A DNA stretch of 64,000 nucleotides from Botryllus schlosseri (taxonomy: Eukaryota): assembly GCA_051294905.1 (NCBI GenBank), contig CM119372.1, forward strand, positions 16,928,001-16,992,000, given 5' to 3'. The translations under genes and the position numbers were made by a program. This document shows, in pieces, positions 3,001 to 43,700 of this stretch (positions within the stretch are counted from its first letter, which is position 1; each line of letters opens with the position of its first letter). The notes under the pieces are model-generated. The model did no database searches and was not told where the DNA came from. It saw only the letters and a list, made by a program, of their open reading frames with translations.

Positions 3001-6000
3001 AGAGCATTCCAATCTCCCAAAGATCCGCCGCATTAATATGCAGTAAATCAGCAATATCAACTTAAACAATACGGATCGTTTATAAATCACCTGAATGGTT
3101 TTGGTGTGAAGACCTTGTCCCATCTCCGTGCCTCCATGTGATAGTAGCACCGATCCGTCGGCATAGACAAGCACCAGGGCACCGCCTTGGTTCAAAAATT
3201 TCAAACCGAAGGCAACGGTAAATTTAGACGACACGCATGATATCCCACGCTTCTTCCATCTGTATTAGTGTTAATATCCGAGTCACAAAAATGGTTATTC
3301 AAGCGGGTAAACACCGATCGGTGAATTTGAAAAAACCTCAGTTCAACGCATGTCAATCCTACATGTCATTCAGTTTATCCACACCTGTTCGCTTTGTTGA
3401 ACTCATCAACTTGCTCCCTGTGCATGTCGAATAAGCTTTTCCGATAACATTCGCCCCAGCACTCGCGTAGTTTCAATCCTTCCATTGGACACCCATAGAT
3501 AACGATGTCGCCATCTTTAAGCATGTTTACAGACCGCACCTGCGGATTAGTTAGCAACTCGCTGTAACGTTTAAATGTCGAAATACATAACTATCAAGCA
3601 TCAACCAAGTCAATCTGATCTTGGATCGAACTTGATCACTGTGTCAGTGTTTGAATCCCACGCCTACTCAAATTTATATTGGTTGAGGGCCGATAACTTA
3701 AACTGTAGGTGCGCTATATGCGAGATGTTGGTGCAAAACGTAGGTCTAACGGCTCTTCGGAATCGTAAAGATTCATTACATGAGACCCGCGTATCCGCCC
3801 GACACTTACTTGTATTTCAATGCTAGTCCCTCACCTTTTCAGGAGCTATGTTCAGGTGATAAGCCACCCGAGTGATCCAATCCTCGACGATAACATTGGA
3901 TTGCGGGGATCCGAATCCACGAAAAGCCGTGTTTGAAGCGATATGCGTCTGGCAAACGTAACCGGTGACTTCCATATGAGGTATTCTGCGTGAAAACTGA
4001 CGGGTAGTACAGGTTGCTAATATGCAACGTTTGGAGAAGCATACTCGAAACTGTTATCCGCCTGGCGCACCGCTTTCTCCATCACTGGGCTCGACAAATC
4101 GCTGGTGTTTCCGCCGTTGCAATAATATTGGATATCCAAAGCTAGAATCCGCCCATCGTCTCTGCAGCCGATCTAAAAATGTAGTTATTTTATCACCAGC
4201 ACGGAATGACATAAGTTTAGGAATTGTGTGATTGGGAACTACCTTGTACCGCGCCAGGAAAGGATGCCTTCCGCCCGTTATTTGCATGTCGTGCTGTCGT
4301 GTCAGGACACATCGGACTGGCTTGCCGTGTCTAAGCAAATGGGTGATAGTCTTGAGTAAATGTATGTATTTCAATCAATACACGTTAATTAGACTTGACT
4401 ACCACGGATTTTCGAACTTCGTCATCATGGTTGTATCGAATATAAAGGGTGGTACTAGGGATGGTGTGAACCTCTGAAACGTTCAGGTTCGTGTGAACGC
4501 GAACATTTTTGAAAGGTTCTGTGTGAACGCGAACGTGAACCTCATGGCGTCATGTGACGTCATATTGCTAAGTCCAACCCTACATTTCAGAGAAGTGATA
4601 GCCTGTATTAATGTGCACGATGCCTAGCGGCGACTCGGGCCACATAATGCCACAATGCTGACCTTTTAAACTTCGCCAAATGTATCAGCTGGGGCTATGA
4701 AATGATATAATAATCCCATAAAATCAGTATCTTCTGTCGCTTTGTTAAAAATTTCGACGAGGACTTGCAAGGGGATATAAGCTTACGCCTGGTCTATCCA
4801 AGACCGAACAATGCATTCGGAGTCTGAGTATTGCTACGTTGATATTGAGCATCAGAGTGTAAAACGGGTTTCTGCACTTGCTACCGATATTACCCCATTA
4901 ACGAGTTATACAGCAGTAGCCAACTCCCCAATTGCACGGATTTGGTTTTTATGATACAATAAACATATGAAGTCAATATTGACCGTGGCCCCGTATGCCT
5001 GCTAGATTTTTTAAAATATGACAACGATAACAATTTCATTGATTGGTTGAATCAGCATCATTCGCTGAGATTGTCAGGTGCATGTTCGTTTAGTGTTGAT
5101 TTTTTTATGCTGCTAGCGCCATGCATAGAGTGGCTGCAGTTGAAATACAATAAATTTCAACCAAAGATGTTATAATGAGGCAAAAAATGTTATATATTAA
5201 AAAGGTTCACAGTGCAGAACCTTCCAAGGTTCGTTTGTGAACGTGAACCTCTAAATTTTCGAGGTTCACGCACAGAACGCGAACGTGAACCTCACGTTCA
5301 CACCATCCCTACTGCTAACACACACTAATCTTATGATCTACATCCGGACAGGATCATATCTGTATCAAAATAGTGCACTCGAGTCTAAGGACGAGTGGGC
5401 TTAAAATGTTAAATTGAAAAACGCTGCTGTTGTTTCCCATTTCGAAATCATAAAGGTACGACGTGACGCGTTGGCGCAGAAGTTATGGAGTCATTGCGTG
5501 TGCTTCTTTCGTGAATGTCGTTTCTTCATCCAAATTTGTATAACAGTGTAAACCGTATAGTTTACCGCGACCATGAAACTATATACCCCTCATCATCATA
5601 ACTATAGAATTATTCACTTACTTTTTGGCCGCCACCGCGGCTGGGCTGGATACTTTGCAGAACCTGGTTTCTTTCCCCCCGAATCCTCCCCCGATTCTCT
5701 TAACCCTCGCCATAACTTTGTTCCTTGAGACGCCAAGACACGCGGCTGTCTGTAAAAGAGATAACTCTGGATTAAAGCCTATTTCCAGTACTGCGACAAT
5801 TTTTCATTCGCGGATACCATATTTTGGAGTGCCGTAGGATCCTGAGATGAGCACCATATCTCCATTTCGTTCTCTCCGTTTCTCGGAATCGCGATGCAGC
5901 CGTGAGTCTCCAAATAGAAATGTTCCTGCCCTCCAACCCTGGAACAGGTTTCCGATCACCATCAACGGCGAGATATTGAAAGAAAAAAAGTTTACCTGAC

Positions 6001-9000
6001 TTCTCCTTCTAGCACATGATCGCAATCTTTGAACCCTTCGCGAAGGTTACCCTTGGCCAATTTCATAATTTCGTAGTACGATTCATGTTCGATGGCATCC
6101 TATATTGCATAAGAAAGTCACCCACAATCCACGCGATATTCCATATTGTCCTCACGGACCATGTTACTAACTTATATGAAGATTACTTCGTTGGGCCGAT
6201 TGCAGAAGATGTAGATAAAATTAGGATCTTGGTAGCTTTCGCACTCTATTTAACAGCCAATTCTAAATTAAAGCTTTAGCACATGATGAAGTAGCTGCGC
6301 TGCGGAAGCTCATGTAACGAATAAAGTTATTAATTTGTAGGTGGGCGTTGATGGCGAGAAAGCTACCAAGATTGCTTATTAATTCACGAATCTTGTCCTT
6401 GTGGCTTATCGAATACGAAAAAATTATGGCTTCTTAAGTATAGGAGAGCGTAAATATTATACACATGGCGCCTACGCCCGTGCTACGAACCTCTATCGTA
6501 ATAATCTTCGGTTGCAAATCTTCGTATTCTATCTTCACGAGCCTTGCCGCTTTCATTGCGTGCTCATGGGTGTCTGCTAAAATGCTTCCAATCACGTGGC
6601 CAAAACATGTTACCTACGATGACATTTCAATGTTACACGTGACCGCTAGGCTTGGCTGCCAAAGTTATACTTCGCCATCCGCGAACACGTCTTCGTCAAA
6701 ATGTGTAATATTTTTTCCCATGACATCTCCAACATCAACATAGTCAACAACTCCAGGCGACTGCAAGGCGGCGGTTGTGTCTACTGATAATATTTTCGCA
6801 TGGGCTCTAGTGCTGTACACCAACACCATGTTCAGTTCGTCTGAAAGAAACGATCAGTGTTACGAGCTGTATCCATATTTATTAAACACCGCGCTATATG
6901 CATGCCTCGGAATGGCGGTATGTCATCCAAGTACTGCGCTTCTCCAGTGACTTGTTTCAAACTAGAAACGTGTGGCATGGGACGTCCCACCATATCGTCA
7001 GGATGCTGGTCTGACAGCACCTAAACGTGTAAAAATCAAAATAAATGTCGGGAAATGGAACGTCCCTTGTTGAACTGATACGCTACTAACATTTTCCCAG
7101 GTTTGTTCGCTTTCAAACGGTTGATCTTCCGCTGAAATATGTTGAAAGATCTGTCTGCTGAGTTTTACGTTGTTTTCCTGAAACGAAATGGTGGTTTACA
7201 AGTTAAATGTAATCGGTATCATAAATCCACAATTTAATCTTCGATTGCAATATAGCGGTGCAAAATCCAAAATAAATCAAATGCGATTTTAACCAGGGAT
7301 TATTCATATATTAAGACTCTCTGTTGATCCGTGCATTTATAGCCAAGATGACCTTCTCATAATCAACCTTATAAATGTGAGAAAAGAATGATGGTGATTC
7401 AAAATTCACATTCAGGCCCTTCGTTCATAAATATGCTATATTCGTGCTGACCTCAAGTACATTTCTTTCGACGAGGGACGCAAATGTACGGTGATAGAAC
7501 TTGAAGAAGAAGCTCGTCACCAAAGCGCGTCTGTATTCCGCCATACCACCGGGTGCATCGAGAGATAACTGCATTTCTTCGCTGAGCCACTGGCAAGTAT
7601 CTTCGAGTAATGCGTTATCCCAACGCCTGTATATTGAGATACGGCTCCGTGTTGGATGCTCTTAATTTGTATACGGTAACAAGGAATAGCGTATAACAGT
7701 GGTTCTTACCTGGTGTTCCAAGGAACACCAGAGGCTCCCTGAGCTGTATAGTCTCAGGAGTTCTCTGGAGGAGTAGACACATACTCAACTCATACGTATG
7801 ACTTGTTATGAATATGATACGCGCGTCCTGGCAATCATTGGTTGCAGGTAGTTAGGATAGTGGCGTACGCAGGGGTTTGGGTTTCAAAATCGATGCCCCG
7901 TCCTCTTGAAGTGCTTATTCTATATATCAATGGGCTTATGTATATATTAGATCCTCCCTTCTCTAACAAAGTCAAGACATGATGTTATTCTTCCCTTTGC
8001 ACATACTTTCGAATCGGTCTAGTTTTTAAATGGATTTTGAAAGAAGTTGAAATTTTGTGAAAATGAACTATATTGTAGCCTCGCATTTCTGAACTGGTAT
8101 CCGAAACGGAACAGCAGAAGTAACACTGATTTGCGATACATATTCATCATAACGTTTTTGTTTCGTGTAGAAATTATATTTTAATGGTTTTGTTCATTAG
8201 ATGTGTAGTTGATGTGTATTGTGGTATATTTTGGATCACGGACTCCGCGAATATTTGCGGTTCCGCGAAGGCTTTCTGATTAGCATAACTGTCCCGCAGG
8301 TTAATAAAGGTTAAGAAGCTCCGGCGTATAATATGTAGTCACTAATGAAGTAGGTACGTTTAATTTGAATTGTCAAGTATAGGTTGCCGCTACGTATCAC
8401 TTCATTCACATCACCTGCCGACGGCTCTTTGCATTGTTTTCGTCGCCATTTTGGTGACTGCTGCCATTCCTCCGAAAGCCATCGACAGTTTACTGACGGT
8501 GCTCGTGTTAGGTTCGAAAGTGACGGCCATCGCGGCATTCACGATCGCGATATCGTCATCTTTTCGTTTGGATTGCTTGTATGCTTCCATGACATCATTC
8601 TGAATCGACATTACCATAGCGTGTATGCATTTTTGATCATCTTAGCGCGGTCGTGATTTCGTAGAATTATAATTATATGACCCGTCCACCAGTGTAGTAG
8701 CAAACACTGCGGTTCCTCAGAGCAATATAGAAACAAAGTTAGAAATAGGATATGCTCCAGTAAATATCTGCAAATGGACATGATTACAAATACTGGCAGT
8801 TTTAAAGGTGGGGTGAAGTCTAAAAGCGGAATTAATGTCAAACTTGAGGTAAAGACATTGTCGAGGCTCGACTCTTCCTCGATCTTCGGGCATTATTCTC
8901 ACCTCTGAGAGAAAGGGAATGTCGATGCTGATCAACACTTCGTCAGGCGTCGTGTTTGTTCTTCTGTATCCGGTGAAAAAGCTGTCATCCATGATAACTT

Positions 9001-12000
9001 CTCGCCGTCCGCCTTTTGTTGATTCGAAGACCAGTTTTGCTCCGCATGTCATAAGTATGGGATTCAAGTCCGAGATTGGACTGCCGGTCATGATATTTCC
9101 ACCCAAGCACTGCCAAAAAGAGGATGTGCTATGCGTATTGGGCTATGAACTGGCCTAATCAGCATTCCACCGGTATCTTAGTTAGCCAGAAACTTTATAA
9201 TAAGGCAACAAGGCCCACCTCACTAAAATATTTCCCTCATTTTGAAATCAAAACGTCGGGATCGACTGAAAATGCATAACCGTGAAACTATGAAATGCAT
9301 TACCAATGAACAGAGCTTTTCAAGTTATGACCTTCTTTCCATTGCTCATTACGAATTGGTAATCGAACATCAAACCAAATCAGACCAAATTACATTGATT
9401 ATTCCGGAGACTCTAATTTAAATTGAAAACTATGAAGCACATTGCGTCGCAGTTTCGCACTGACACAGGGTCACTTTACACTCTACACTTTTCACATGGC
9501 CACTTTACACTTAACACTTTACAATCGGCGATTATTGTGTTCACCATCTCAAGACAGACAATCTACAAATTGATATACAGACGCAATTCGATGTAATGAA
9601 CAGATAGGAAGATGTCGCAGGGTCGATGTGCAGTATATATCGAGTTCATCGGATTCGTGGCCACGAGTGCATGAGCTAAATTGCTCAGCTGCTGATGGTG
9701 TTCGTTAGTATCCCGGAAACTCAGATTGTTATGCAACAATGGTGAGATTATAGCATCTCTAAATCAGTATGAGGAAAGATAGAGGCCAGCATAATATAGG
9801 TCATAGGACTATAATCGAATCATTCGAACGTACCAGTTGTGTGACTTGGCAGTGCCATAAACAATGACTGAAGTACATGTCGAGACAATCTGAAAGGTGA
9901 CCAAAGTCGAGTCGAATCATTTGTCATGATAAAAAATGAATCAGTCATGACTCGATGCAACCCTGATCTGTATGTACCATTGTACCCGTATCTCCAAAAT
10001 TGCATGGAGATGTTCAGTGTGGATTCAAATTCAACGACAGACTTCCGAAACTGATAGTCATTCCATATTTCTCATAAGGCGAGTCCGGATATTGTAAAAA
10101 CGTGACTCGTGTCAAGTCATTTTGTCGGTAGGGTTGGGATATATGTAAATAAACATATTTAGAGTGTCTGGCTATCATGACACTCGGTATTCTGAATGCC
10201 TCTCAATTATGATAGTCGTTATTTTGAACGCGTGCCAACCAAGGGTTTAAAATAGTGGTTCCCAACCTTTTCCGACTCATCGCGCCCTTATCAACTTCCA
10301 CACGAATTTTCACCTTCATATTTAAGTATCCGAAAAAAAGGACATATAATCGGGAAATTGATTCACCTAACTGAGGTCGCTGGTGAATTTACCAAAAAGG
10401 TCATTTTTTCGATGTGGTAGGTGCTCGGAAAACCGGTTTCCGCGTCTACTTTCTGTTGAGTTGACCAGCTTTTCGCGTCATTTTGAGAATAAGCCGTCTT
10501 TACGTGCATTTTTATCGTGGTAATTAAGTACTGGACGTTATAACATATTCGCCCCCGTTTTTCTCAAAATCACCCACGTTGGGAACCACTGGTTTAAGAT
10601 AAATCGACGGTGTAATTGCGTAACACGGAACAATGATGCATCGATTGGTTGATAACGAAGTGACTTACAGCTACATTCCTGATTTGGGATCCGGCAAACA
10701 GCTGGAGCATATTTAAAAACGCGTTGAAGACTTGTCCCTCGGCTTTCGACTTCTCAGTACAGACCTTGCGAAGAAAATATTCGACATGCGCCAAATTACA
10801 CGACGCGCCGATTCGTACACCTGAATAACACAAATATATTACATGGTGATATAACTGCAGTATATATTTGTAGAGATGTGTATACTATCCTAATCGACGT
10901 GGTCATACACTACGTGAGGACGGCATCACATGACTCGAACGGCGCCACGCGCCACGCTAAATTCACTATATTAATAGTAATAAGAAATAATAACATTATG
11001 CGTATCTGCTGATGGTGCAACAATCGTGAATCGGAACTATTTATTCTTATCCGCAAGGCGCATAGTTTAATCACCTTATTACTAGGGAAAGTGTTTGCTA
11101 CTTTTTACAGCTTTCGGCAGTTTCTTAAATACTCAGAATTTATGTAGTTTGCTGGTGTTATAAGCTGTTTCTCAAAATTTTATATCGCAGCTTTTTTATA
11201 TATTTCATGCAACTTTTACTGCAAATGTTATCAAGTATTGCGCAAAATGTAAAGGAGTGATTTAAAAGACAGGCTATAAAACAAGTTCCAGTATTATTCT
11301 ATTCTCTTTGATTTGCATAACAAAGAGCTGTGTGATGGATTAGCTGCAACTCAATGTTATCTATGATGCAGCAGTCGTCTTGCAAGCTCGAAGTTAAACA
11401 ACCCCAGCTCAGCACGACAGCTCCCGAACCTAGTTAGAAATGGATGTATGACTTCGCTTCTAACCAAAGATCGCACTAATGAAAAGAGGTTGTGCCTGGT
11501 CGTTCGCGAGGTCAACCTGCGGTCCGACGGAGGTTTTTTGTGCTACCCGCTACTCATTTTCACTTCAAGTAGTATTTTGAACTTTGAACCTGGGCCTAAT
11601 TAAGATTTACCAGTCCGCTTCTAGGGGCGCGGTAATAGTATAGTATGGGGAATGTTACCATCTCCGTTCTCCTTTTTCTTTCTCGTGCATGAGTGAAAAT
11701 GAAGAGAGATTGATGCGCAATAATGCCTCGGAGACTGACTGAATGGGGCTAGAGTGCTAGTTGCCAGTTAGGACGCTTGTTTGTATAGTGCAGTGTTGAT
11801 TGGCCGTTGGTAATTCGCAACTTATGCATAAATGCAACTTTTAACTGCAACTTCTGTTAAAATTAAGTGCAACTTTCTCACCATTTTAGTGCAACAAAAA
11901 CTTGCCCTACTTATTACCTAAACAGCTTCATTACACAGCTAAAACATCCGAACCGTTACGCGCAGGGGTCGGCAACCTTTTACTAGTCGCGGGCCAAATT

Positions 12001-15000
12001 TCGGGTGTGCAACTTTTTGGCGGGCCGGAATTTTTCTTAGTACTATATTTTACGCTCACTTCGGTATATTATCCTACATTGCTGCAATCTCAATCATACT
12101 AATCAGACACATGTATTTACACTTCCACAACACAGAATAAATGTGACAATTGACGTAGCTTGCTTTGTGAAAGGTTTTCAACTTCTGGTAACAAGTCAGA
12201 CGAAACAAAAATCAGACCCTATTCAAAATGGACGTCCGAAATACGTGATCGTAGCTTGCTCTTCGTGAATTTCATTGTTCAAAACTATTGTTCACATGCG
12301 TACGTGCTTCCAAAAATCGATGCAATTTCTTTTGCATTGTTGGTCAAGCTGGGATAAAGACCAATTTCAAGAACGTACTCTTTGTCAAAGTCATGCAGCA
12401 TATGCTCTTTGTATGAAATTTGTCATTCAATTCAACTGCATCGCATTTCAGAAAAGCCCATTTGAAATTTTCGGGCAATGGTTCCACATTAAACGGAGTA
12501 CTGAATAGTCAGAATTCATTTTGTAGAGAAGGAATGTCGGAAAAGCGGGTGAATATTCAGTAGTTAAATTTCGTATCACAGTTACAAATGTAGTGTTGGT
12601 ACTAGGTTTTCTCTCCTCCAGTATAGGAAAGTGAGCATAATTTTCTTAGTACTCTTGACATTTCCAGAGTCACAGATTTGTTTTGAATGCGCCTCAACAT
12701 CTCATGTATTTAGTTGTTTTCCCCCTGAAGTTGCAAATTCAATTTGTTCAGATGTGACGTTAAATGTACCAGGAAAGGAAGATGAGATACCCATTTTCGA
12801 TTACAAGATTATGAGTCAGCGATATTTTTATTTTCGAGGAAAGTTGCTATTTCATTTCTCAGTTCATACACTCGTGTAAGCATAGCTGCTCGACTTAATG
12901 CGCGAACATGACAGATATAGGCCTACATGATATCGCCATATTGATTCTCCGCTTCTAGTAATATCTGGCGTAACTGATTCAGATAATGAGACAAAAATCA
13001 TATTAACAGTTTTCACCATTGTGGCCAAAACACTATTCACACAATGCCTTCTGGAGAATTAAACTATAGATAGGCTAACTAACATACGGAGGCTAGTTAT
13101 CTATAATTGAACAGTTTCAGATTCTGTCATTGCGTCTGAGATGTTCCAAGCGTTTTTGAAGCAAAGGAAGGACACCTTTATCGTCACACCCCATTAGAGT
13201 GGTAAACCCTTTAAAAAGTATGGAACACCTTCGGTTGCGAGATACACCCGATTGATAAGTACTGATCCAGTCTAGTCTATCTTCCTCTCCTACTTCAACC
13301 ACCTTCGTTTTATGGCGTAAAAATAGACTAATACGATATAGGCTACTATTATATCGTAGCAATGCCGCATTTTTTTCATGCAGTGCTGCACTGCAGATTG
13401 AAACTCATTATGAAACGGCTGGCCGTATTCTTGTGATAACTAATTATTATGTCGCGGGCCGGACGATTTCGCTTGGCGGGCCGGATCCGGCCCGCGGGCC
13501 GTAGGTTGCCGACCCTTGCGTTACGGTATTGGACACTAATGGATGGAGAAAATACGTTTCGCAGATGAAATCGAAAATATATCTGTAATACGGCGAATTC
13601 CGCGTTTACTTTTATTACAGTAGTTTTTGTATAATTAACAAAAAAATTTAGTGCATATGGCCTGACAGCCCTTTGCAGCTCGGTCAATGAAAACTCACAT
13701 TGGAAGCCACAGAAGGAGGGTAGGCCTACATAAGTGACAAGACGGATAAAGCAGCGTCGTAACTTGCATTGACGTTGAAACATAGATCGATACAATCTTG
13801 CATTCAAAGAGGCATACGCTACCTGTAGCTCTTTCTTCAATCTCCCATAGTTCCGTTACATTTACCGGATATATCAGGTTCCCATAGCAATAACCTTTTA
13901 CGTTCATTTCGACTCCGACTTCCGTATTGCCCACAACTATTTTCGACTCCGGAAAGCGCGACTTCAAATCCAACAGTTCCTTCAGGTCTGCTGGTTCGTG
14001 CCAGGCCACGTTCTCCCCGACGAAAGTTAAAGACTCAGGGGCTTTTTGGCACTCCAACTGAAATAACGCGCATACGGTGCATCGGTCATCGCAAACTTGA
14101 CAACGCGCAATAAATGACTTCTGTGCAGCAATACCTTGAGCTCGGGTGGAAATATCGGTTCTTGGGTGGGCTCGTATGGATTCCATGCTGTTGCCGATTT
14201 GACTGAATGGAAGGTCGATTGATTATTTCTAACTTAATACGAACTGCAGCTGCAGGTTTGGTTTCTCACCATCACGACTGCCATTCTGCTTTTTGCAACA
14301 CTGATCCCCCTTGTCGCAGGTGAAGGTTTCGAAGGCTTTAACAAATAGGTCGGATTAATGTCCGTTGATATATTAGTTAGAGAGTTAACGAGGTGATCAC
14401 TCTTTGAAAATTAATTGTCGTACCGGATATGATCGACCTATATCCAGTACAGCGGCACAGATTTCCTTGAAGGCATGTTTCCACTTCTTTGAAAGACGGA
14501 CATTTGTTGTTGCGAAGAAGCGCGTACATGGACATTACGAATCCAGGCGTGCAGAATCCGCACTGCGATCCGTGATAAGCAGCCAAACGCTCCTGTACTT
14601 GATGCAACTTGGTTTTGGTGTTGCCGATGCCTTCCACGGTTGTCACCGCGCACATATGGGCAGAGGTGACAGGGGCAAGGCATGCGTTTACGGCAAAATG
14701 CCTGGAAGAAATGGAGCAATTATATCCAACTGTGTAATCCGAAACGCCTGTTTTATCGACTTCAACATAACCGGCCGGTATTAAAACATGCACCATCGTA
14801 TCCGATCATACAAAGTGGTAACTGAAGTCTTGAAGTCTGAGTAGCTTGAAGGAGAATTACTAGGGATGGTGTGAAGGTGAACGTCAGGTTCACGTTCGCG
14901 TTCTGTGTGTGGACCTCAGAAATTTTGAGGTTCACGTTCACAAACAAAACTTGGAAGGTTCTGGACTGTAAACCTTTTTCATATATTACAATTTTCACTT

Positions 15001-18000
15001 CATTGCAACATCTTTGATTGAAATTTATAGCATTTTAACTGCGGGCCACTCTTTACATGGTGCTGGCAGCATAAAAAATCAACACTAAACGAGCAATCGA
15101 GCATGCACCTTGACAATCTCGAAAATTTTACTTGCTCTGTTACAAAAGTTTGCTCGAAATATTCAGCTTTCCGTTTGTGAATATTTAGCGACTCTCTGCT
15201 CTGAGCTTGACCCGCAATCACACAACAAGAGCGCAATACACTACATGTGGTGAACGCAGGAGGCTGATTCAACCTAGGGTTACCATATTTTGGAAATCTG
15301 AAAAGAGGACACTTTTACAAAATTTTCAGACTTGCAATACCGGAAGAAAATCCTGAAAAAATGGTAAAGGTTTTACACTTCGTGGCCGAGTGACTAAAAA
15401 AAGGCCAACTTTCCGGCTCAGCTTCACCTACCCGCCGGAGCGTTACTTCAGTGCTGAATTACTCTATCTCAGTCGAATTTTGCCCTATATTTAACCAAAA
15501 ATCTCTAAACAGAAGACAAAATCTCAAAAAAGAGGACATTTAGGCGTCCTCCGAGGACACTTTCAAAAAAGTCAAAAAAGGGGACAAATCCTCTTAAAAG
15601 AGGACGTATGGTAACCCTAATTCAACCAATCAATGGAATTGATTTCGTTGTATGATGTGCAAAATCTAACATGTGTTCGGGGTCAATCTTGACTTCATAT
15701 GCTTATTGTATCATAAAAACAAAATCCGTGCGATTGGGGTGTTGGCTACTGCTGTATAACTTGTTATAGGGTAATATCGGTAGCAGGTAAAGAAACCCGT
15801 TTTACACTCTGCTCAATATCTACATCAACATCAACATCGCAATACTCAGACGCCGAATACATTGTCCGGTCTGGCCTAGACCGTTAATGCGTAAGGTTAT
15901 ATTCCCTTGCAAGTCCTTATCAAAATTGTAGGCAAAACGAAGGAAGATATTGATTTGATGAGATTATTATATCATATGATTGCCCCAGTTGATACAGTTG
16001 GCGACGTTTAGAACGTCAATATGTACTTCAGTATAGTGGCATTATGTGAATCGAGTCGTCGACGCTAGGCATCGTGTACCCGTACATCAATGTAGGCTAT
16101 CAGTTCAGAGAAATGTAGGGTTGGAATGAGCAATATGACGCCACGTGACGTCATGAGGTTCACGTTCGCGTTCACACAGAACCTTTCAAATAGGTTCGCG
16201 TTCACACGAACCTGAACCTTTCAGAGGTTCACACTATCCCTAGGAATTACTATAAAATCAATCCCCTTCAGACCGATAATTCTTCAATACGCTATTTTTA
16301 ACAGAACTTCATTCGAGTTGCTACCACAAAAGATCCTACACCGAAATTAATGGATTGATATTATAAACATTCCTATACGCTTTTAACATTATTGCAGGTT
16401 GAGTTGCTCAATGCCATTGCGTTTCCTTTTGACTTACCTAACAGATTGCGTCGTTCTGTCCCATTTTGAGATCATTACCGTACAAGCGCCGCATCCTCCT
16501 TCTCCACAACCAAGCTTGCTGCCAGTCAGTCGCACTGTTCGTACAAACGCAAAATGATAGAAAAGGGTGCGAAATACCGATAAGAAATCAGGTAGGCCTA
16601 CTTGTTCTTACGTTTGTTACGAATATAGGTCAGGAGAGTTGTCTCGGGGTCGGCATTGTCGTCTGTCACCTGTCATTCAAGGCAAAATATATCAGTCTTA
16701 CGCATGCAGCGCTTAATTGCCATCGTCTGGAAAGTTACCTACACGCACAACTGAAATTATTTCAAACAAGATTTTGCAAAGCCCATTGATTAGTTAGTCG
16801 GAGATATGAAATAGAAGTAACAACTTCTGAAATATTGCACAGGAAAAGCAAACCGTCCTTATTCGTTGACAACCAGCTATACTTTCATGTCCAAATTCGA
16901 ACAGCGTCTCCACTTTGGTAGTATTAGGAACCGGTATTTAAAATTCACGCAACAAATGTATCCAGGTATTGGTGAGATTCATTTTACGATTCACCTATGT
17001 CGCGCAAGATATGCATAAATTTTGTCTCGCAAATACACGAATAACAAAGATTCTGTATGTGTGTCAGCTAAACCTTCTGTCTTGTGATGCATGCATATAT
17101 ATTGTATATGTCCTACATCTCATGCACACAGCATACGTCCAGTAGGCCCACCGTTACCATATAAATGTAAATAAACATTGATGATAAAGCTTTTGGTGTC
17201 GGATAACAACAGAGACGTCACACGCTAGTTATGAATATAGTATAGAAGATCCTACATACTTGTCCTATGCGTCCATTGCCATGATGCATAAATAGACTGA
17301 TTTCTGAGGGACACACAGGTACTGCTTATGACGCATGTACGATAGCTATAGTGATGTTTTTATAAGTAGAGTCTTTGGTTTCATTATAAACCTTGCGAAC
17401 AATGAAACGAACGGATATCCAGTAATGGTGTTGGGTGATGACAACAATGTAACAATCTCATAGCGGATAGGATGGCATATAAACATTTAAACAAGTGATT
17501 TGTGGTACAGAACTTCAGAATAACGCGAAACAATAACTTCATATTGTTAATTTATTCGCTAAAAGCTTTTCGATTGACCCTCATCAGTAGCGAAACGTCA
17601 GTGATAGGGTGAATCAAATTCGAAATGTAAGAGCTGTTTTGTCCGTATGACGTAATAATAACAAAAACAAACAACTAGTAGACGGGCAAGATACGGTAAA
17701 TTAGAATAAATTAGATAAATTAGAATAACAATATAATAATAATAAATAATAAGAATAGATAAATAATAATAGATAAATTAGAATAACACAATGCGTGATT
17801 ATAATCAAGTTATGATTATGATCAAGTTACTGCTTGTAATTCGGCTATTGGACAGCATCTCTTATCCCATCCAGAATGTGCTGATCATTACAATGACAGT
17901 CAATTTTTCTATACTTGCTCGTGGCCGTTCTCCTTTTCATTTAAAGGTCCTGGAATCTACGGTCATAAAGCTACGAAAGCCGATTCTCTGTCGCCAGAAG

Positions 18001-19150
18001 GAACGCCTCTACACTCTTGGAATATTTCATTAATGTTATGTGTTGTGTTTTCGGTTATTAATAACAGAATATGTACTCGTTAACGTTTGTTTTGTACCGT
18101 TACTACCGTATCTTGCCCGTCTACTAGCTGTTTGTTTTTTGTTATTATTACGTCATACAGACAAAATAGTTCTTACATTTCGAATTTGATTCACCCTATC
18201 ACTGACGTTTCGCTACTGACGAGGGTCAATCGAAAAGCTTTTAGCGAATAAATTAACAATATGAAGCTATTGTTTCGCGTTATAAACGTTTAACAAACAT
18301 CATTTTTTTTACATAAGATCATTGTTATTGTGATGTCACATATGTTGTCAAAATTATAACTGAAGGCCGATGGCTGTCTCTTAAGTCTGAACCATAAGCG
18401 CAGTGAAGCTTTGAAGTTGTGATTCGTTTTACCGCCCTGGTCATATGACCGGGTATATCTATGCTTCGACCTTGTCTCAAATAAAGACATTGCGTCATTG
18501 TTGTCATGAGATCCATCAGACCTGCATAGCTACTCTACGTTAGGCGCAGTATGCGGCACCGGACGTGTGAAACGAATTGAAGTATTTCTATCACGAAAAT
18601 ACAAGCATACGGTGATATCGAAACCTCGCTTGCGTTCCAAATATACGATTATAGCTGTCCTTTGGTTCCTACCCTTTCTTCAAATTTCGTTAGATGAGTT
18701 CGGACACTGGATTCACCGATCAAAAGTGATATTATACGTATCGACTGTCTCGATGGGCCTATTCAAACCTTCGCTAACGTGATGCTTAGACAGATGAGCA
18801 TATGGAAGTACTGTCTGTGTACTAATAGACTCTTGATTATTATTCATACCTGGCCTGAGGCATGTACAATGTTATTGGCCGTGGCGCAAAAGGCCGTCAG
18901 GCGATAAGCGCCATTATTTATGTTTAATAAACAACAACAACAATGCCTGACCTGACCTTTTCGTCAGTAAATATATCCAATCCATCCATCCACCTGGCTA
19001 TCATCAACAAAACTTACTTAATGCAGAGTATAGCATGGTGGGACTTCGATGAAATAAGGCAACGACTAACGATACGATTTTATTGTGAGATTTCTTTGAA
19101 CATACCTTTCTTCCGTTGACAAAAAATGTTAGAGGAGCCCTTGCCGCCAT
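1..19150 (-). CDS. XDH: Xanthine dehydrogenase/oxidase-family gene, copy A (29 coding exons; last exon runs off the window start)
   Basis: Exons 5'->3': 19150-19106 ([15 protein letters not shown]), 16669-16612, 16534-16438 ([10 protein letters not shown]), 14701-14424 ([17 protein letters not shown]), 14335-14270, 14202-14135, 14057-13823 (IVVGNTEVG), 10820-10669 ([10 protein letters not shown]), 9109-8903 ([20 protein letters not shown]), 8599-8415 (RKDDDIA), 7626-7452, 7177-7091, 7020-6906, 6840-6671, 6613-6491, 6099-5996, 5938-5818 (GGQEHFYLE), 5749-5622 ([10 protein letters not shown]), 4330-4243, 4172-4045, 3985-3835 (AFRGFGSPQ), 3539-3385, 3259-3091 (HGGTEMGQG), 2760-2632, 2556-2429, 1949-1757, 1530-1342, 576-409 (AVGEPP), 39-<1 ([13 protein letters not shown]). 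Splice phases are consistent, introns are GT-AG except one GC-AG, and no in-frame stops were seen. The symbol marks family membership; orthology to XDH versus an XDH-derived paralog is not established. Confidence 0.93.
4456..5311. mobile_element. Non-autonomous hAT (Ac-like termini) element, family H1, in XDH-A intron 18
   Basis: TIRs TAGGGATGGTGTGAAC...GTTCACACCATCCCTA with subterminal (G)TGAAC repeats. The internal sequence matches copies at 14861, 40914 and 62177 in the opposite orientation. No TSD was recognisable. Confidence 0.85.
7697..8323. mobile_element. hAT-type MITE in XDH-A intron 10
   Basis: Termini CAGTGGTTCTTAcc...ggTTAAGAAgCtccG with a perfect 8-bp TSD GCGTATAA. Internal sequence is shared with 36890-37441 and partly with about 860-1030. 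Confidence 0.8.
10253..10591. mobile_element. hAT (Charlie-like) MITE
   Basis: TIRs TAGTGGTTCCCAAC...GTTGGGAACCACTG; TSD GTTTAAAA/GTTTAAGA (7/8). Confidence 0.8.
11083..11909. mobile_element. hAT-type MITE with GCAACTT subterminal repeats
   Basis: TIRs TAGGGAAAGTGTTT...AAAAACTTGCCCTA with a perfect TSD CTTATTAC (11075-11082 and 11910-11917). Confidence 0.82.
11963..13518 (-). mobile_element. Decayed hAT-Charlie DNA transposon
   Basis: TIRs CAGGGGTCGGCAACC...GGTTGCCGACCCTTG with GCGGGCC subterminal motifs and near-duplicated flanks (CGTTACG). It contains a transposase remnant. Confidence 0.85.
12200..12860 (-). pseudogene. hAT-Charlie (GTF2IRD2/EPM2AIP1-type) transposase remnant
   Basis: Minus-strand translations [40 protein letters not shown] and the dimerisation-domain segment [31 protein letters not shown], with stops and frameshifts. 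Confidence 0.8.
14861..16242. mobile_element. Family H1 hAT element in XDH-A intron 3, carrying a nested insertion
   Basis: TAGGGATGGTGTGAA...TTCACACTATCCCTA; TSD AGAATTAC/GGAATTAC (7/8). Confidence 0.87.
15275..15619. mobile_element. hAT MITE (GAGGAC subterminal repeats) nested in H1
   Basis: TIRs TAGGGTTACCATA...TATGGTAACCCTA with a perfect TSD ATTCAACC. A second copy lies at 32875-33270 in the reverse orientation. Confidence 0.88.
17555..17594 (-). ncRNA. Minimal type I hammerhead ribozyme motif (PLE pLTR)
   Basis: Minus strand reads UUCGCUA-CUGAUGA-GGGUCAAUC-GAAA-AGCU-UU-UAGCGAA: 7-bp helix I, canonical core, G-C closed loop II, palindromic AAGCUU in place of helix III. Confidence 0.78.
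18209..18248 (+). ncRNA. Minimal type I hammerhead ribozyme motif (PLE pLTR)
   Basis: UUCGCUA-CUGACGA-GGGUCAAUC-GAAA-AGCU-UU-UAGCGAA; predicted cleavage after 18241. Confidence 0.78.
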
Positions 19151-23478: not shown

Positions 23479-24433
23479 TTCTGGTCCGGTTTCGTTAAAT
23501 TCAGATTTGAGAATTAGGCTTCGGCCGTGATGCGTGATTTATAAAATACCACTTCTGAAATGTGAAATGAAAGTCACCTTAATAGCTGTCATATAAAATG
23601 CAAAGATACCTCAAATATGTGACTGGCGGTATTGAACTTAAATAGTGCTTTAAGAATTACATTCATTGCAGTCGAATTTATTACCTCGAAGACCTCAAGA
23701 GTTAACGGTACAATAAGAAGAAAGAGTTTCTATACAATCTTTAAATATTATATTAATATATACCGCTAATTGTATGTGTGTAACGTCTTCCGTGTATTGT
23801 ATAATTTGTTTTCTGTTGTCTCTTTGTTATGACTACCGGAGTACCGGTACAGCTGACTTTGGCCAACTAACGTTCCTTTTTATTATTGCATTGCACGTCA
23901 TATTTTGCTAATTTGGTTTTCGTTTGAATCTCTTTCCGTATGCTTCTTGTGCCGTTAACTCTTGATAAGGGGCATACGAAATGTCTTAAATTTAATATAT
24001 TATACTGCAATGAATGTAGTTTTGAAAGCAAAATTGGAGATACTTCAATGTTTCGCCACGTATATTTCAAACGCAAGAACAATGAAACACAGAGCACTAC
24101 AACTAATTATTCAGCATTCCAGACAATATTCGTTCTTCTGAAGTGTTCTGTGTTTTGGGCAAACCGGTTGGTAGGGAGTGTCACAGGCAAAATTTCTACT
24201 TCTACTTCTACTTCGGAATATTTTGCGAACTACTTACTTACTTCTCGCTACTTTCAGTTTGTCAAGAAGAAGTAGTTTAATCCCCCAATAAGAAAGATAG
24301 CCGAAGGAATTTCGGGGTTGTTTTCACGTAGTACCAACATTTAATATACATTTTAATATTATATTCATTGAACAGCTTCTTTGAGGTACAGAACTTCAAT
24401 ATACAATTGAATAGCATATTCATATTAAAATGA

Positions 24434-24467
24434 ACCCGAATATTTTCGGCTGACACTCGTCAGGGGT
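24434..24467 (-). ncRNA. Minimal type I hammerhead ribozyme motif
   Basis: Minus strand ACCC-CUGACGA-GUGUCAGCC-GAAA-AUAU-UC-GGGU, with palindromic AAUAUU and a UC cleavage site. Confidence 0.72.
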
Positions 24468-24543
24468 AATCGTCAGCAACTAGTAGAGAATTCGAAAGAA
24501 CAGCGTATATCAACATTGTATATTCATTGTAAAATATATTAAA

Positions 24544-24577
24544 ACCCGAAGCTTTTCGAGCTGACACTTTTCAAGGA
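24544..24577 (-). ncRNA. Minimal hammerhead motif with U3-A8 core variant
   Basis: Minus strand UCC-UUGAAAA-GUGUCAGCUC-GAAA-AGCU-UC-GGGU. Confidence 0.6.
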
Positions 24578-24720
24578 ATTTTTAGCGAATCTAAAAATTG
24601 GCCACTAGCTGCGCTCGCGGTTTGCCTGTATTTCATGTTGTTTGTTTCTATGACGCCATAATTGGTTGTAAGCAATGTAGCTAGATGCATGTTTTTGAAA
24701 TTCTCCATTTGCTGACGATT

Positions 24721-24755
24721 GCCCTTGAAAAGTGTCAGCTTAAAAAGCTTCGGGT
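24721..24755 (+). ncRNA. Degenerate hammerhead motif (G12 replaced by A, probably inactive)
   Basis: GCCC-UUGAAAA-GUGUCAGCUU-AAAA-AGCU-UC-GGGU; an inverted copy of 24544-24577. Confidence 0.45.
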
Positions 24756-25070
24756 TTTATTATATTTTACAATGAATATATTATTAAAATGTATACTGAA
24801 GTTCTGTACCCCAAAGAGTCTCGTTAAGAACATTTAATTTTCATAAAAGTCATGTAATACACTGAGTTTCCGTTGTGCTTCGCGTACAGTAGATATGGAG
24901 TGGAAAATATGTTTTAACGAAAGTATCGCTGAATATAATTTAGATAACGGGTTGCGTGGTTCGTTGACACCGCATTGTCACCTATACCAAATATTTCATC
25001 ACAGTAAGCATGGCCCCCATAACGTTAGAAACTACCGTTTCGCCATCTAGCAATTACCTATTATACCTAG

Positions 25071-40700: not shown

Positions 40701-43700
40701 TTAAGTTTCTTGTTATCATTTCATTCGCCAATGTTATTTTCTTTTCTGTCGGACAAATCAATAAATATTTCTCTCTCCCCACTAAATATCAACGAGAACA
40801 TTTTGCATCTTCGCTGACATCACCTCCGTCCGTACTTCTTGTGCTTACAACTATAAAGTTTGAGGGACGGAGTCTGACCGGAAATTTAGTGTTGCATGGC
40901 GATAGGTAGATAGTAGAGAGGGTGCGAAAGTGAGGTTCACGTTCGCGTTCTGTGTGTGAACCTCAGAAATTTAGAGGTTCACGTTCACAAACGAACCTCG
41001 GTAGGTTCTGCACTGTAAACCTTTTTCATATATTACAATTTTCACTTCATTATAACATCTTTGGCTGAAATTTATTGCATTTCAACTGTGGGCCACTCTA
41101 TGCATGGCGTTGACAGCATAACAAAATCCACAATAAACGAGCATGCACCTTGACTTTCTCAAAAACTTTACTTGCTTTGTTGCAAAAGTTTGCTCGAAAT
41201 ATCCAGCTTTCCGTCTGTGAACATCTAGTGACTCTCTGCTGTGAGCTTGACCCGCAATCACACAACATCAAGAGCGAAATACACAACATGTAGTCATCGA
41301 ATGATGCTTATTCAACTAATCAATGAAATTGATATCGTTGTTTAATGTAAAAAAAAATCTAGCAGGCGTATGGGGTCAATCTTGACTTCATATGCTTATT
41401 GTATCATAAAACCCGAATCCGTGTGATTGGGGTGTTGGCTACTGCTGTATCATTTGTAAATGGGGTAATATCGGTAGCAAGCATAGAAACCCGTTTCACA
41501 CTCTGCTCAATATCAACGTAGCAGTACTCAGACGCCGACGCCGAATACATTGTCCGGTCTGGCCTAGACCGTTAAGGCGTAAGTTTATATTCCCTTGCAA
41601 GTCCTCGTCGAAATTGTTGGCAAAGCGACGGAAGATATTGATTCTATGGGATTATTCTATGATTTGGTTACCCCAGTTGATGCATTTGGCGACGTTTAAA
41701 TCGTCAATATGTACTGCAGTATTGTGGCATTATGTGGCCCGAGTCGTCGCTCGTTATCGTGTACAATAATGTTGGCTATCACTTCACTGAAATGTAGGGT
41801 GGGAATTAGCAATATGACGTCACGTGACGTCATGAGGTTGACGTTCGCGTTCCCACAGAACCTTTCAAAAAAGTTTCACGTTCACACGATCCTGAACCTT
41901 TCAGAGGTTCACACCACTACTAAAACTACTACTACTATAACATTTAATATCGGCTGTTAGGATAAAATGTAAACTAGGTTGAATAAAATAATAAAAATAA
42001 AATAAAAATGTCCAAATTCGGTCATATCTTCAAAAATAGAGCCAATCTGCAAAAACCAATGCCATTTTCGATCTCAGTGCCCTCGATTTACCCTAAAATC
42101 GTTCTCACCTACCATGATGAATTTTTTTGTTGTTGTCCAGTGTAATAATAGTCTGTAACACGTAGCTATACAGTTACTCACGCATTTCAGCATGTTCGTG
42201 AGCGATGGAAGGTCTTTTTTTCGTGTATATTTAACTTTATATTCGTTATTTGATTCATTCACGCAGCTAGCAAAATGTAATGACTTCGGGTCATCACTCA
42301 TACTTCGAAAGTTCGATGTGACTTGACTTGACTCGAGTCACCTTGGAAAATAGATTGACTTAACTTGACTCGAGTCAAAATTTGCAATGACTCGAGACGA
42401 CCCGTGTCTCGAAGGTAGTGACTTGATCTCAACACTGATAGGTACATTCATTAGATTATTGCATATTCCGTTAATGTTATGGTTGGGTTTGTTTTTGTGC
42501 CGACAATATCTTATTTATTTATTTTGTTATAGTGCAGTAGCCTTGAGATGATGATATATTTTTCATACCCCCCTGAAAAAGGCCCATGGCCCCGGGTTGG
42601 GAATCTCGTGGCATGAGTCAATGTATTTTTATCTCGGAACAACACTCGAGCAGCAAACGAAAGTCGCAGTAACGTTCATCCGGCACAAGTGATTACTGTA
42701 AATTGTGTGCAATAACTAACATAAGCTTAATCTTATCTTTTAAACAGCATCAGTATCACAGCGAGCTGATAGCATCAAAGCTTCCGTGTGTAGTGCAACC
42801 TGTGATGGTATTTCAGTAATGTTTCACGAGCTGTCGGGGTGGCACCAACAATTGTGAGGTTACACAGCTGAAATAACTTGGTATTTCCGGGTGATTTGAA
42901 GCAGTGGTGCCACTCCTAGTGTTTTTACACTAAATTTAATGTATTTTGACTTGACCTAGTGTTCAGCTGTATTTTTTATCAAAATTTTGCAAATCTAGTA
43001 TTTTTTCATGAAAAAATAGATTAAATGAAGACGTCATTCTGATGAGCTTTGCATAACATATGGTATCTGTCCAACACTTGCTCATTTAGCACAAGAACAA
43101 ACCCAGAAGGTAAATTGCTTTGCTATGGAGCTCATTTCTACTACTGACGGTGTGAAGATCTTGAGATTAAATACAGGATTTTTGACACCTTTTATAAATA
43201 TACAATGGCGATGCGGATACGTCCGGACTATATCATGTTCGCGAGTTCATGTTGAAGATTTTACCAAGCCATGACTGGCAGTTTGTTTATCTAATCGTCA
43301 TGTCCTAGTACAGGTAAAGTTTGTATGACAACTTGACAACGACTGAGACAAAGCGGATTAACCGGCAACCTGACCATTGTTTTTATCCAAGCCTGAGACC
43401 GGTTTCTAACTCCCAAAAGCGAACCGATGATAGAAGCGAATATGATACCTTGCTCGATTTGCCCGGGCCCATTCGTGAATGAATAAATATTATGAGTAGC
43501 CCTGCGATATACACTCAGTTTTATATCCCTGGTGTTGCCAAGAATATAAATTACTTTAAGTTGCAATATTTGAATTAAAAACGGGCATGACATCATAACG
43601 CTGAAATAATTTTGCATGGGACAGCCTACAGTGATTTGGCTTCGATAATTTTATTTGACTAAAATGTCGGCTTTCTTCGATCCTTTGACTGTGGAAAACT

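What the first reader, a model, noticed from the sequence alone, without database searches (positions are those of the whole stretch)
24336..24838. Second, non-coding hammerhead cluster including a compensatory U3-A8 core variant
Seen: three related motifs within 330 bp. These are ACCC-CUGACGA-GUGUCAGCC-GAAA-AUAU-UC-GGGU (minus), UCC-UUGAAAA-GUGUCAGCUC-GAAA-AGCU-UC-GGGU (minus, in tandem with the first) and an inverted copy with G12 replaced by A. The palindrome switches between AAUAUU and AAGCUU but stays palindromic, and C3-G8 changes to U3-A8 together. Established: positions 3 and 8 form a Watson-Crick tertiary pair in hammerheads, so the double change preserves pairing. Inference: the two covariations indicate selection for ribozyme function in a small non-autonomous, PLE-derived (retrozyme-like) family that may be undescribed in this genome.
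Basis: partly seen in the sequence, partly recalled or inferred. Interest (0 to 1): 0.75.

Follow-up and report, generated by a model that had tools for sequence, protein, structure and literature searches.

The report
Nested Penelope ends with knotted hammerheads
The three hammerhead-type RNA motifs are real, but they are the cut-off ends of two Penelope-like jumping genes, one inserted inside the other, and their U-A core pair is already known; only a likely pseudoknot that appears to replace the second stem is unusual, and self-cutting is untested.

Summary
The three motifs are real (4 strict matches in the window against 0.02 expected). They are not one small retrozyme family. 24336-24838 is a 493-bp insertion with a 10-bp target-site duplication, and the empty site exists in DNA contigs and reads. 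It is a head-to-head pair of 5'-truncated Penelope-like (PLE) ends (copies B and C, U3-A8) with a one-sided 34-nt tail. A 148-nt end of a second, far more abundant PLE family (copy A, C3-G8) later inserted into the left arm, with its own 11-bp duplication, so the 'tandem' is accidental. Arms A and C encode the first 17-19 codons of a PLE RT-GIY-YIG protein. G12A in C is private CpG-type decay; B has lost its 5' part. U3-A8, palindromic loop III, inverted pairs and tails are all published for PLEs. Unusual: stem II is about one pair, and a leader/loop II helix is kept in 29 of 30 cells over five rows, three of six pairs changing on both sides: a likely pseudoknot. Cleavage is untested, and the parent ORFs of A and C were not found. 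This scan noted the same kind of motif earlier on other DNA of this genome.

The parts
24336..24345 (.). Left copy of the 10-bp target-site duplication of the outer insertion
   Evidence: 10/10 identical to 24829-24838; empty-site joint 24335->24829 with 10 letters fitting both sides
24346..24370 (-). Distal half of arm B (3' part of the inverted, tail-less PLE end); 24360-24370 is the left copy of the inner 11-bp duplication
   Evidence: With 24530-24576 it matches arm C (24723 onward) at 68 of 72 positions
24371..24518 (-). Copy A: later, nested 148-nt 3' end (pLTR piece plus tail) of a second, very abundant PLE family
   Evidence: Flanked by an 11/11 duplication; 75% identical to arm C over 149 columns; far higher depth than B or C in DNA contigs and RNA reads
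24372..24423 (-). ORF start in A: first 17 codons of a PLE RT-GIY-YIG protein, ATG 14 nt behind the predicted cleavage site
   Evidence: Aligns to columns 4-20 of a 25-protein PLE profile, E=1.1e-6; distance
24434..24467 (-). Hammerhead A: helix I 4 bp, C3-G8, 1-bp stem II, loop III AAUAUU, predicted cleavage after 24438; core intact
24472..24477 (-). Leader hexamer of A, complementary to loop II (24454-24449): likely pseudoknot
24519..24529 (.). Right copy of the inner 11-bp target-site duplication; the target includes the start codon of arm B
   Evidence: 11/11 identical to 24360-24370
24530..24576 (-). Proximal half of arm B with hammerhead B (U3-A8, G12 intact, loop III AAGCUU), 5'-truncated inside helix I, no leader
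   Evidence: best leader pairing only 3 bp
24577..24599 (.). Head-to-head junction: perfect 9-bp fold-back palindrome with a 5-nt loop
   Evidence: family contigs begin to match at 24588 (table 8)
24588..24794 (+). Arm C: longer 5'-truncated pLTR with leader (24711-24716), hammerhead C (24721-24755; U3-A8; G12A) and ATG at 24772
   Evidence: in DNA run X1 the family reads C at 24741 (depth 1837 of 2045) and G at 24742 (1755 of 2014); ORF start E=3e-7 against the PLE profile
24795..24828 (+). One-sided 34-nt PLE tail (ORF codons 8/9-19), absent from arm B
24829..24838 (.). Right copy of the outer 10-bp target-site duplication

Best explanation
The region is a nest of two truncated Penelope-like retrotransposon ends, each carrying its family's minimal type I hammerhead motif, likely left by target-primed reverse transcription in two separate events, and the motif likely folds with a leader/loop II pseudoknot in place of a normal stem II. 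Shown: boundaries, both duplications, the empty site, arm identity, the one-sided tail, the ORF starts, private loss of G12 in C. Inferred mechanism: a PLE protein (RT plus GIY-YIG) nicked an AT-rich site and primed cDNA at two internal sites of its RNA near codons 8 and 19 of the ORF, giving a long arm with tail (C) and a short inverted arm without it (B). Later a related family did the same at the AT-rich start-codon region of arm B and left A. In full-length tandem elements of these families the hammerhead lies 14-22 nt before the AUG and would cut as a dimer through the palindromic loop III, probably with help from the element's protein. At this locus only A retains all parts; C is predicted dead (G12A) and B crippled.
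For: Outer duplication 10/10, inner 11/11, rejoined B = C at 68/72. Empty-site joint in 7 contigs of DNA run X1, 2 reads of X24 and 4 of X22. ORF starts of A and C match the N-terminus of a 25-protein PLE profile. The neighbouring insertion at 17490-18283 has the same build, and its frame is the N-terminus, its spacer the C-terminus, of an intact 850-aa RT-GIY-YIG protein, P0003. Literature gives the same anatomy: inverted 5'-truncated copy and 30-40-bp one-sided tail (PMC8557442); 9-10-bp duplications, pLTR plus tail covering the first 12-22 codons, junction palindromes, one Penelope inserted in another (PMC3846280); tail = stretch between two internal RT starts, AT-rich nicking, protein-assisted hammerhead (PMC11167929). 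Pseudoknot: 29 of 30 cells paired, 3 of 6 pairs changed on both sides, 1 of 500 shuffles as high, slid controls 23-43% paired; two of the five rows (L050, family D) were found without using the pairing.
Against: No full-length ORF of family A or C was found among 266 PLE-like proteins (best 10-12 identities in 17-19 residues), and no genome is held, so their autonomy is inferred. The pseudoknot test rests on five related rows; the helix was first read from A and C; per sequence the pairing is weak against shuffles (p 0.02-0.05 for A, C, L050; 0.36 for D; 0.98 for cluster 1, which has a mismatch and only 4 contiguous pairs). Single-strand folding does not give the hammerhead fold (z -1.6 to +0.6), and in A the core itself can pair with loop II (-6.8 against -9.8 kcal/mol for the leader). 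No read pile-up of ends at the cleavage site (table 6).
Confidence: 0.85

Rival explanations
1. Family A (and perhaps C) is a short non-autonomous PLE derivative, SINE- or retrozyme-like, that keeps the hammerhead and the ORF start as cis signals and is copied in trans, possibly through circular RNA.
For: A is extremely abundant and present in RNA on both strands; no parent ORF found; a non-autonomous derivative would need the ORF start, where RT primes (PMC11167929); non-LTR retrozymes derive from pLTRs (10.64898/2026.07.22.740005).
Against: A is a single 5'-truncated unit with its own duplication, not a head-to-tail array of like units; reads continue upstream of its 5' end and many copies stop at different places (table 7); the ORF starts keep residues while synonymous sites differ; the sister family in this window has an intact ORF; classical retrozymes carry canonical hammerheads in 150-450-bp tandem repeats (PMC7229834).
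Confidence: 0.1
2. The anatomy is as in the best explanation, but the motif no longer cuts in these families; it is kept as a folded protein-binding or regulatory element, and the leader/loop II helix is an alternative hairpin that blocks the core.
For: PLE hammerheads cleave poorly in vitro (PMC4209133); cleavage was dispensable for insertion and no reads ended at the site in the anole element (PMC11167929); 1-bp helix II type I hammerheads of chrysoviruses are slow (PMC13725137); no end pile-up here.
Against: All catalytic positions, helix I pairs, the 3-8 pair and the loop III palindrome are kept across divergent families; the leader helix can coexist with helix I as an H-type pseudoknot, and a natural 1-bp stem II hammerhead with a 6-bp pseudoknot is fast (PMC3088659, a type II example).
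Confidence: 0.2
3. The cluster has been co-opted by the host as a ribozyme or promoter element for the xanthine dehydrogenase/aldehyde oxidase paralog whose ATG lies 5.2 kb downstream on the same strand as A and B.
For: A and B are sense to the two minus-strand paralogs; the locus lies between the 3' end of one (35590) and the ATG of the other (19150).
Against: Empty-site forms exist; the copies carry private decay, including G12A; only 97 of 3560 and 217 of 11936 laid RNA reads are 99% alike or better, and depth over B and C is 1-7 in bulk RNA.
Confidence: 0.02
4. The motifs are chance matches inside the terminal inverted repeats of a MITE.
For: No Rfam match; the window is rich in inverted repeats.
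Against: 4 matches against 0.02 expected; arms unequal with a one-sided tail; ORF starts of PLE type; a homologous motif with compensatory changes in another organism's DNA (L050).
Confidence: 0.01

Closest known systems
Minimal and palindromic-loop type I hammerheads in PLE pseudo-LTRs (Cervera & De la Pena 2014, PMC4209133)
   Same: Type I topology, short helix I, G10.1-C11.1, palindromic loop III, U3-A8 variant (about 1,300 hits in Schistosoma; Fig. S3 lists the same UUGAAAA core, and a U3/G8 core in Saccoglossus), pairs on opposite strands 100-700 bp apart, mostly truncated copies.
   Different: All 56 representatives in Fig. S3 have helix II of 3 bp or more; here it is 1-2 bp, without the usual extra base after A9, and a leader/loop II helix is conserved.
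Canonical C-terminal-endonuclease PLEs, Penelope/Poseidon type (Arkhipova 2013 PMC3846280; Craig 2021 PMC8557442; Frangieh 2024 PMC11167929)
   Same: Head-to-head 5'-truncated arms, 10-11-bp duplications, one-sided tail, ORF start inside pLTR plus tail, junction palindrome, AT-rich targets, insertion into another PLE; P0003 has RT, DKG, C-terminal GIY-YIG and no CX2-5CxxC linker motif.
   Different: Here the hammerhead lies wholly before the AUG (in the anole element the ORF starts at stem II). Clade placement is by architecture only; no tree with named references was built.
Pseudoknotted hammerheads (Perreault et al. 2011, PMC3088659)
   Same: Stem I/stem II alignment by a base-paired pseudoknot occurs in all three types; a natural example has a 1-bp stem II and 6-bp pseudoknot and is fast.
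   Different: That tested example is a type II motif from a metagenome; none seen in the passages read combines the pseudoknot with a dimer-dependent loop III in a PLE.
Non-LTR retrozymes of animals (Cervera & De la Pena 2020 PMC7229834; bioRxiv 10.64898/2026.07.22.740005)
   Same: Type I hammerhead, short AT-rich repeat, PLE-related.
   Different: Retrozymes are head-to-tail repeats of like units with a complete hammerhead in each; this locus has inverted arms, a nested unlike unit and ORF starts.

Membership tests
Type I hammerhead (PLE minimal form) | Core CUGANGA...GAAA...UH with a 3-8 Watson-Crick pair | tested here: met
   A and B complete; C fails at G12, a private change
Type I hammerhead (PLE minimal form) | Helix I closing the motif, with compensatory changes | tested here: met
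   3 of 4 helix I pairs change on both sides, 100% of cells paired in 6 rows; B keeps only 2-3 bp; family D has lost its 3' strand
Type I hammerhead (PLE minimal form) | A15.1-U16.1 with palindromic loop III (dimer-type) | tested here: met
   AAUAUU in A, AAGCUU in B, C, cluster 1 and L050; not palindromic in decayed D or in L033
Type I hammerhead (PLE minimal form) | Helix II of 3 bp or more, as in the 56 published representatives | tested here: not met
   1-2 bp in A, B, C, cluster 1, D, L050; 4-6 bp in the six other PLE-type motifs found. This marks a variant; 1-bp stems II are known in other hammerheads
Type I hammerhead (PLE minimal form) | Self-cleavage after position 17 | not testable with these tools
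   No end pile-up in fragmented RNA libraries, which cannot show it
Canonical endonuclease-positive PLE | pLTR plus tail containing the ORF start | tested here: met
   cluster-1 frame = N-terminus of P0003
Canonical endonuclease-positive PLE | Inverted 5'-truncated copy, one-sided 30-40-nt tail, short target-site duplication | tested here: met
   68/72 arm identity, 34-nt tail, 10- and 11-bp duplications; empty site
Canonical endonuclease-positive PLE | RT plus C-terminal GIY-YIG ORF in full-length family members | tested here: inconclusive
   Met for the sister family of cluster 1 (P0003; RT E=1.6e-9, GIY-YIG E=0.0068, below Pfam's cut-off); not found for A or C among 266 proteins
Non-LTR retrozyme | Two or more consecutive like units, each with a complete hammerhead | tested here: not met
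   A and B are different families, A nested in B; B truncated
Non-LTR retrozyme | No coding sequence | tested here: not met
   ORF starts in A and C; a derivative could still keep these
Non-LTR retrozyme | Unit-length circular RNA | tested here: inconclusive
   No back-joint in RNA among the 15 joints shown; 161 more were not shown
Pseudoknotted hammerhead | Conserved base pairing between the strand before helix I and loop II, with compensatory changes | tested here: met
   29 of 30 cells paired, 3 of 6 pairs changed on both sides, spacing 8-9 nt; only five related rows
Pseudoknotted hammerhead | The pseudoknot raises the cleavage rate | not testable with these tools
   needs mutant-rescue kinetics

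The most novel reading that the evidence does not exclude
A lineage of Penelope-like elements has rebuilt its hammerhead: stem II has shrunk to one pair and a 6-bp leader/loop II pseudoknot, kept by compensatory changes in at least four families of this genome and one of another organism, supplies the tertiary contact that PLE hammerheads are said to lack. The result would be a faster, dimer-gated ribozyme that cuts 14-22 nt before the AUG and releases a nearly leaderless mRNA for the RT-endonuclease.
Probability: 0.35. Interest if true: 0.5.

Novelty: new variant of a known kind. Interest (0 to 1): 0.27.

Why it matters
As proposed (a new retrozyme-like family with a new core variant) it does not hold: the locus is ordinary PLE debris and U3-A8 is in print. 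What remains is a structural variant. The role of PLE hammerheads is an open question because the tested ones cut poorly. A form with a predicted pseudoknot, placed just before the start codon, offers a simple mutant-rescue test of whether some PLE ribozymes are efficient and whether cutting serves translation.

Tried and rejected
Rfam, E<=1: 0 matches in the window. No whole genome is held, so genome-wide covariation could not be run. Run search: no RNA holder listed; 20 of 24 rows hold part of the stretch; not used as evidence on expression or habitat. Read laying shows 40 of 175 difference rows, without phase, so it cannot test 3-8 covariation; no shown row falls on core positions 3 or 8. 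Metagenome pattern scan: 115 loci (scan stopped at 37 of 64 parts); 4 had a core upstream, of which L050 and L067 are one real relative, L033 is a PLE-type motif with a normal stem II, L038 was dropped as chance; the other 111 are chance. Viral contigs: no PLE protein relative in two scans; leader-plus-core pattern gave 104 loci, 2 with GAAA, neither with a palindromic loop III, dropped. Prokaryote-genome contigs: 13 PLE-like ORF loci, 5 with a hammerhead behind the ORF, none of the short-stem type. Parent ORFs of A and C: not found. Idea that the 14-nt stretch shared by A, C and cluster 1 is a non-coding signal: rejected as sole reading, it encodes LKFCT. Idea that the leader is a second core: rejected, no helix I is available. 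One search was run one base out of frame and replaced. The 3-8 pair alone in five rows is not above shuffles (129 of 500).

Full report
OBSERVATION. The three motifs are present as written: A (minus, 24467-24434, C3-G8, loop III AAUAUU), B (minus, 24577-24545, U3-A8, AAGCUU) and C (plus, 24721-24755, U3-A8, AAGCUU, G12A). The window holds two more, at 17594-17555 and 18209-18248 (cluster 1). A strict descriptor finds 4 in the window against 0.02 on average and at most 1 in 200 dinucleotide shuffles; leaving positions 3 and 8 free finds the same five. Rfam gives no match at E<=1. The window is animal-type DNA with two intron-rich xanthine dehydrogenase/aldehyde oxidase paralogs on the minus strand; the finding lies between the 3' end of one (35590) and the ATG of the other (19150), and cluster 1 lies in the first coding intron of the latter. 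None of 128 plus-strand frames of 62 residues or more has a Pfam match.

ANATOMY. The flanks are themselves repetitive, so the empty form may be an allele or a paralogous repeat copy. Inside, 24360-24370 and 24519-24529 are 11/11 identical and enclose A (24371-24518). Without A, the left arm B (72 nt) matches arm C at 68 of 72 positions. So B and C are the two arms of one head-to-head insertion and A is a later insertion into B; A and C are only 75% alike. Joints that skip A also appear in X1 (24368->24531/24532, 1 and 7 contigs), though those listed carry 4-5 other letters and are probably other family copies. Arm C runs 34 nt further than B (24795-24828), a one-sided tail, and the junction 24577-24599 is a perfect 9-bp fold-back. 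Cluster 1 is built the same way: 180-nt arms 96% alike, tail on the left only, 11-bp duplication with one mismatch.

THE ARMS ARE PLE ORF STARTS. A 14-nt stretch occurs exactly three times in the window, each behind a hammerhead (0.42 expected even with two mismatches). It encodes LKFCT in a frame opened by an ATG eight codons earlier in A, C and cluster 1. The spacer of cluster 1 encodes a frameshifted GIY-YIG C-terminus, which retrieves an intact 850-aa protein, P0003 (95% identical over 42 residues), whose N-terminus equals the cluster-1 arm frame. P0003 has an RT domain (E=1.6e-9), a weak C-terminal GIY-YIG match (E=0.0068, below cut-off), DKG and no linker zinc-finger motif, and 611 relatives at E<=1e-20. 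Against a profile of 25 of them the 17 codons of A and 19 of C align to the N-terminus with E=1.1e-6 and 3e-7. No protein identical to the A or C start was among 266 examined, so autonomy of these two families is inferred from kinship.

THIS IS THE PUBLISHED PLE PATTERN. Craig 2021 (PMC8557442, passages): inverted 5'-truncated copy and a 30-40-bp tail at one end. Arkhipova 2013 (PMC3846280, passages): 9-10-bp duplications, 31-bp tail, pLTR plus tail covering the first 12-22 residues, junction palindromes, one Penelope inserted in another. Frangieh 2024 (PMC11167929, parts 1-2 of 4): AT-rich nicking, RT primed at two internal sites that delimit the tail, hammerhead cleavage needing the protein and dispensable for insertion in vitro. 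A review (PMC6765202, passages) states that PLEs tend to insert in or next to earlier PLE copies.

THE TWO COVARIATIONS. U3-A8 was reported in natural hammerheads by Perreault 2011 (PMC3088659, passages) and in about 1,300 PLE motifs by Cervera and De la Pena 2014 (PMC4209133, parts 1-2 of 4 and supplement parts 1-2 of 3), whose Fig. S3 lists the same UUGAAAA core; palindromic loop III and opposite-strand pairs 100-700 bp apart are in the same paper. Here, 5 of 13 PLE-ORF loci carry a hammerhead behind the ORF, 4 of them U3-A8. Over 11 lineages seen here the 3-8 states are 4 C-G, 6 U-A, 1 U-G, 0 C-A (Fisher p=0.015; 0.04 with one row per source; no correction for relatedness), but in the five short-stem rows alone the pair is not above shuffles (129 of 500). 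The pair is real and known. It reflects selection on active ancestral families, not on these copies. In C the family reads C at 24741 (1837 of 2045) and G at 24742 (1755 of 2014) in X1: G12A is one half of a CG-to-TA change private to this copy, and G12 is the general base (PMC6155905, passages). B is cut inside helix I. The loop III hexamers of A and B cannot pair with each other (+3.3 kcal/mol; self-duplex -0.2 for A, -4.3 for B/C), so the accidental tandem would not form the dimer.

EXPRESSION AND ABUNDANCE. Summed contig depth in X1 is 2.8 million over hammerhead A against 46,000 over B and 34,000 over C (not copy numbers). Bulk RNA depth is about 1,000 per strand over A and 1-7 over B and C. 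Only 97 of 3560 and 217 of 11936 laid reads are 99% alike or better, and most run on into unlike sequence, so they come from dispersed copies. No place where many molecules begin or end was found; a second organism gave 17 reads, all under 90% alike.

WHAT IS UNUSUAL. Between A9 and G12 there are only 9-10 nt and stem II is 1-2 bp, whereas all 56 representatives in Cervera's Fig. S3 have 3 bp or more and the six other PLE-type motifs found here have 4-6. A hexamer 8-9 nt before the core is complementary to loop II. Two further relatives were found without using this pairing: L050/L067 in metagenome contigs of another organism and an older head-to-head relic 300 bp to the left, family D (about 23600-24035). 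In five rows (A, C, cluster 1 right arm, L050, D; B, the cluster-1 left arm, the deleted D left arm and L067 left out as truncated or duplicate) 29 of 30 cells pair, 3 of 6 pairs change on both sides (outer pair G-C, U-A, A-U; an inner A-U becomes C-G), 1 of 500 shuffles reaches this and slid controls pair 23-43%. With B included and the whole motif counted, 94.7% of 76 cells pair. Against: few, related rows; weak per-sequence significance (p 0.02-0.05 for A, C, L050; 0.36 for D; 0.98 for cluster 1); energy folding does not yield the hammerhead. Pseudoknots of this purpose are known in all three hammerhead types, and a 1-bp stem II example is fast (PMC3088659); type I motifs with 1-bp helix II in fungal virus UTRs are slow (PMC13725137, passages). 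A 2017 review says PLE hammerheads usually lack tertiary contacts. I did not find the combination in print: searches (0 papers). Lunse et al. 2017, the largest PLE hammerhead survey, was not available; I know it only from recall and from the review, and it and its supplements may already list this form.

MECHANISM. Shown: structure, order of insertion, ORF starts, decay. Inferred from the cited work: priming at two internal sites, AT-rich targeting, dimer-type and protein-assisted cleavage. Inferred here: the pseudoknot, and cleavage 14, 20, 19 and 22 nt before the AUG in A, C, cluster 1 and D, which in a tandem or read-through transcript would free the ORF. Retrozyme membership fails on like tandem units and on absence of coding sequence (PMC7229834, passages; 10.64898/2026.07.22.740005, parts 1-2 of 5), though a non-autonomous family A cannot be excluded.

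EARLIER NOTES. Nothing near this place or by sequence. Five notes on other DNA of this genome describe PLE hammerheads with a UUGAAAA core or possible loop II pseudoknot and head-to-head insertions with one duplication and a tail. I had noted the pseudoknot before seeing them; they prompted the duplication-and-tail reading, which I then tested. They are not independent support.

VERDICT. Real motifs, ordinary PLE insertion, known core variant, modest structural variant. Interest 0.27.

Noticed in passing
window 23600-24035: A third, older head-to-head PLE relic (family D): right arm with a U3-A8 core at 23962, short stem II and a different but pairing leader/loop II; left arm has lost 16 nt of the core and carries a 27-nt tail; its frame matches the PLE N-terminus (E=1.2e-4).
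   Followed up: partly
window 17490-18283: Cluster 1 is a head-to-head PLE insertion in the first coding intron of an XDH/AOX paralog; 180-nt arms, left-only tail, AT-rich filler at the junction, frameshifted GIY-YIG C-terminus; parent protein P0003. The left-arm hammerhead is intact and sense to the host gene.
   Followed up: yes
window 24385-24398, 24797-24810, 17504-17517: The first 14 nt of the tail are identical in three families; A versus cluster 1 differ at 4 of 4 same-residue codons just upstream and 0 of 4 in this stretch (p=0.014), hinting at an RNA- or DNA-level constraint at the RT start site on top of coding. In both head-to-head insertions the short arm stops at codon 8.
   Followed up: partly
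window 24472-24477 and 24711-24716: The leader repeats the core sequence itself, so in C3-G8 family A the core competes with the leader for loop II (-6.8 kcal/mol) whereas in the U3 cores of C and L050 it does not (-1.3, -1.6). U3-A8 might remove a misfold in this lineage; speculation.
   Followed up: partly
L050 1790-1901 (same as L067): Homologous short-stem hammerhead with a U3-G8 wobble core and pairing leader in metagenome contigs; the ORF start behind it is disrupted and no PLE ORF lies nearby.
   Followed up: partly
L033 2880-2990 (minus): A PLE-type hammerhead with a normal stem II followed 52 nt later by the same 14-nt stretch; could be homologous or chance, since the search selected for it.
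   Followed up: no
L116-L128: Thirteen contigs in prokaryotic genome assemblies encode PLE-like RT proteins, five with a hammerhead behind the ORF; probably eukaryotic DNA binned into these assemblies.
   Followed up: partly
window 24588-24710, 17640-17660, 23880-23910: CCAAT-like and TGACG-type motifs in the upstream pLTR parts of several families, a possible internal promoter; motif names recalled, not tested.
   Followed up: no
window 400-19150 and 35590-56712: Two tandem, intron-rich xanthine dehydrogenase/aldehyde oxidase paralogs on the minus strand (88% identical over the Fer2_2 exon).
   Followed up: partly
window 4455-5314, 14860-16243, 40907-41929, 62170-62796: Four copies of another dispersed repeat of about 1 kb, and several inverted-repeat elements (for example arms 42318-42445/44177-44304, 27984-28061/28592-28669).
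   Followed up: no
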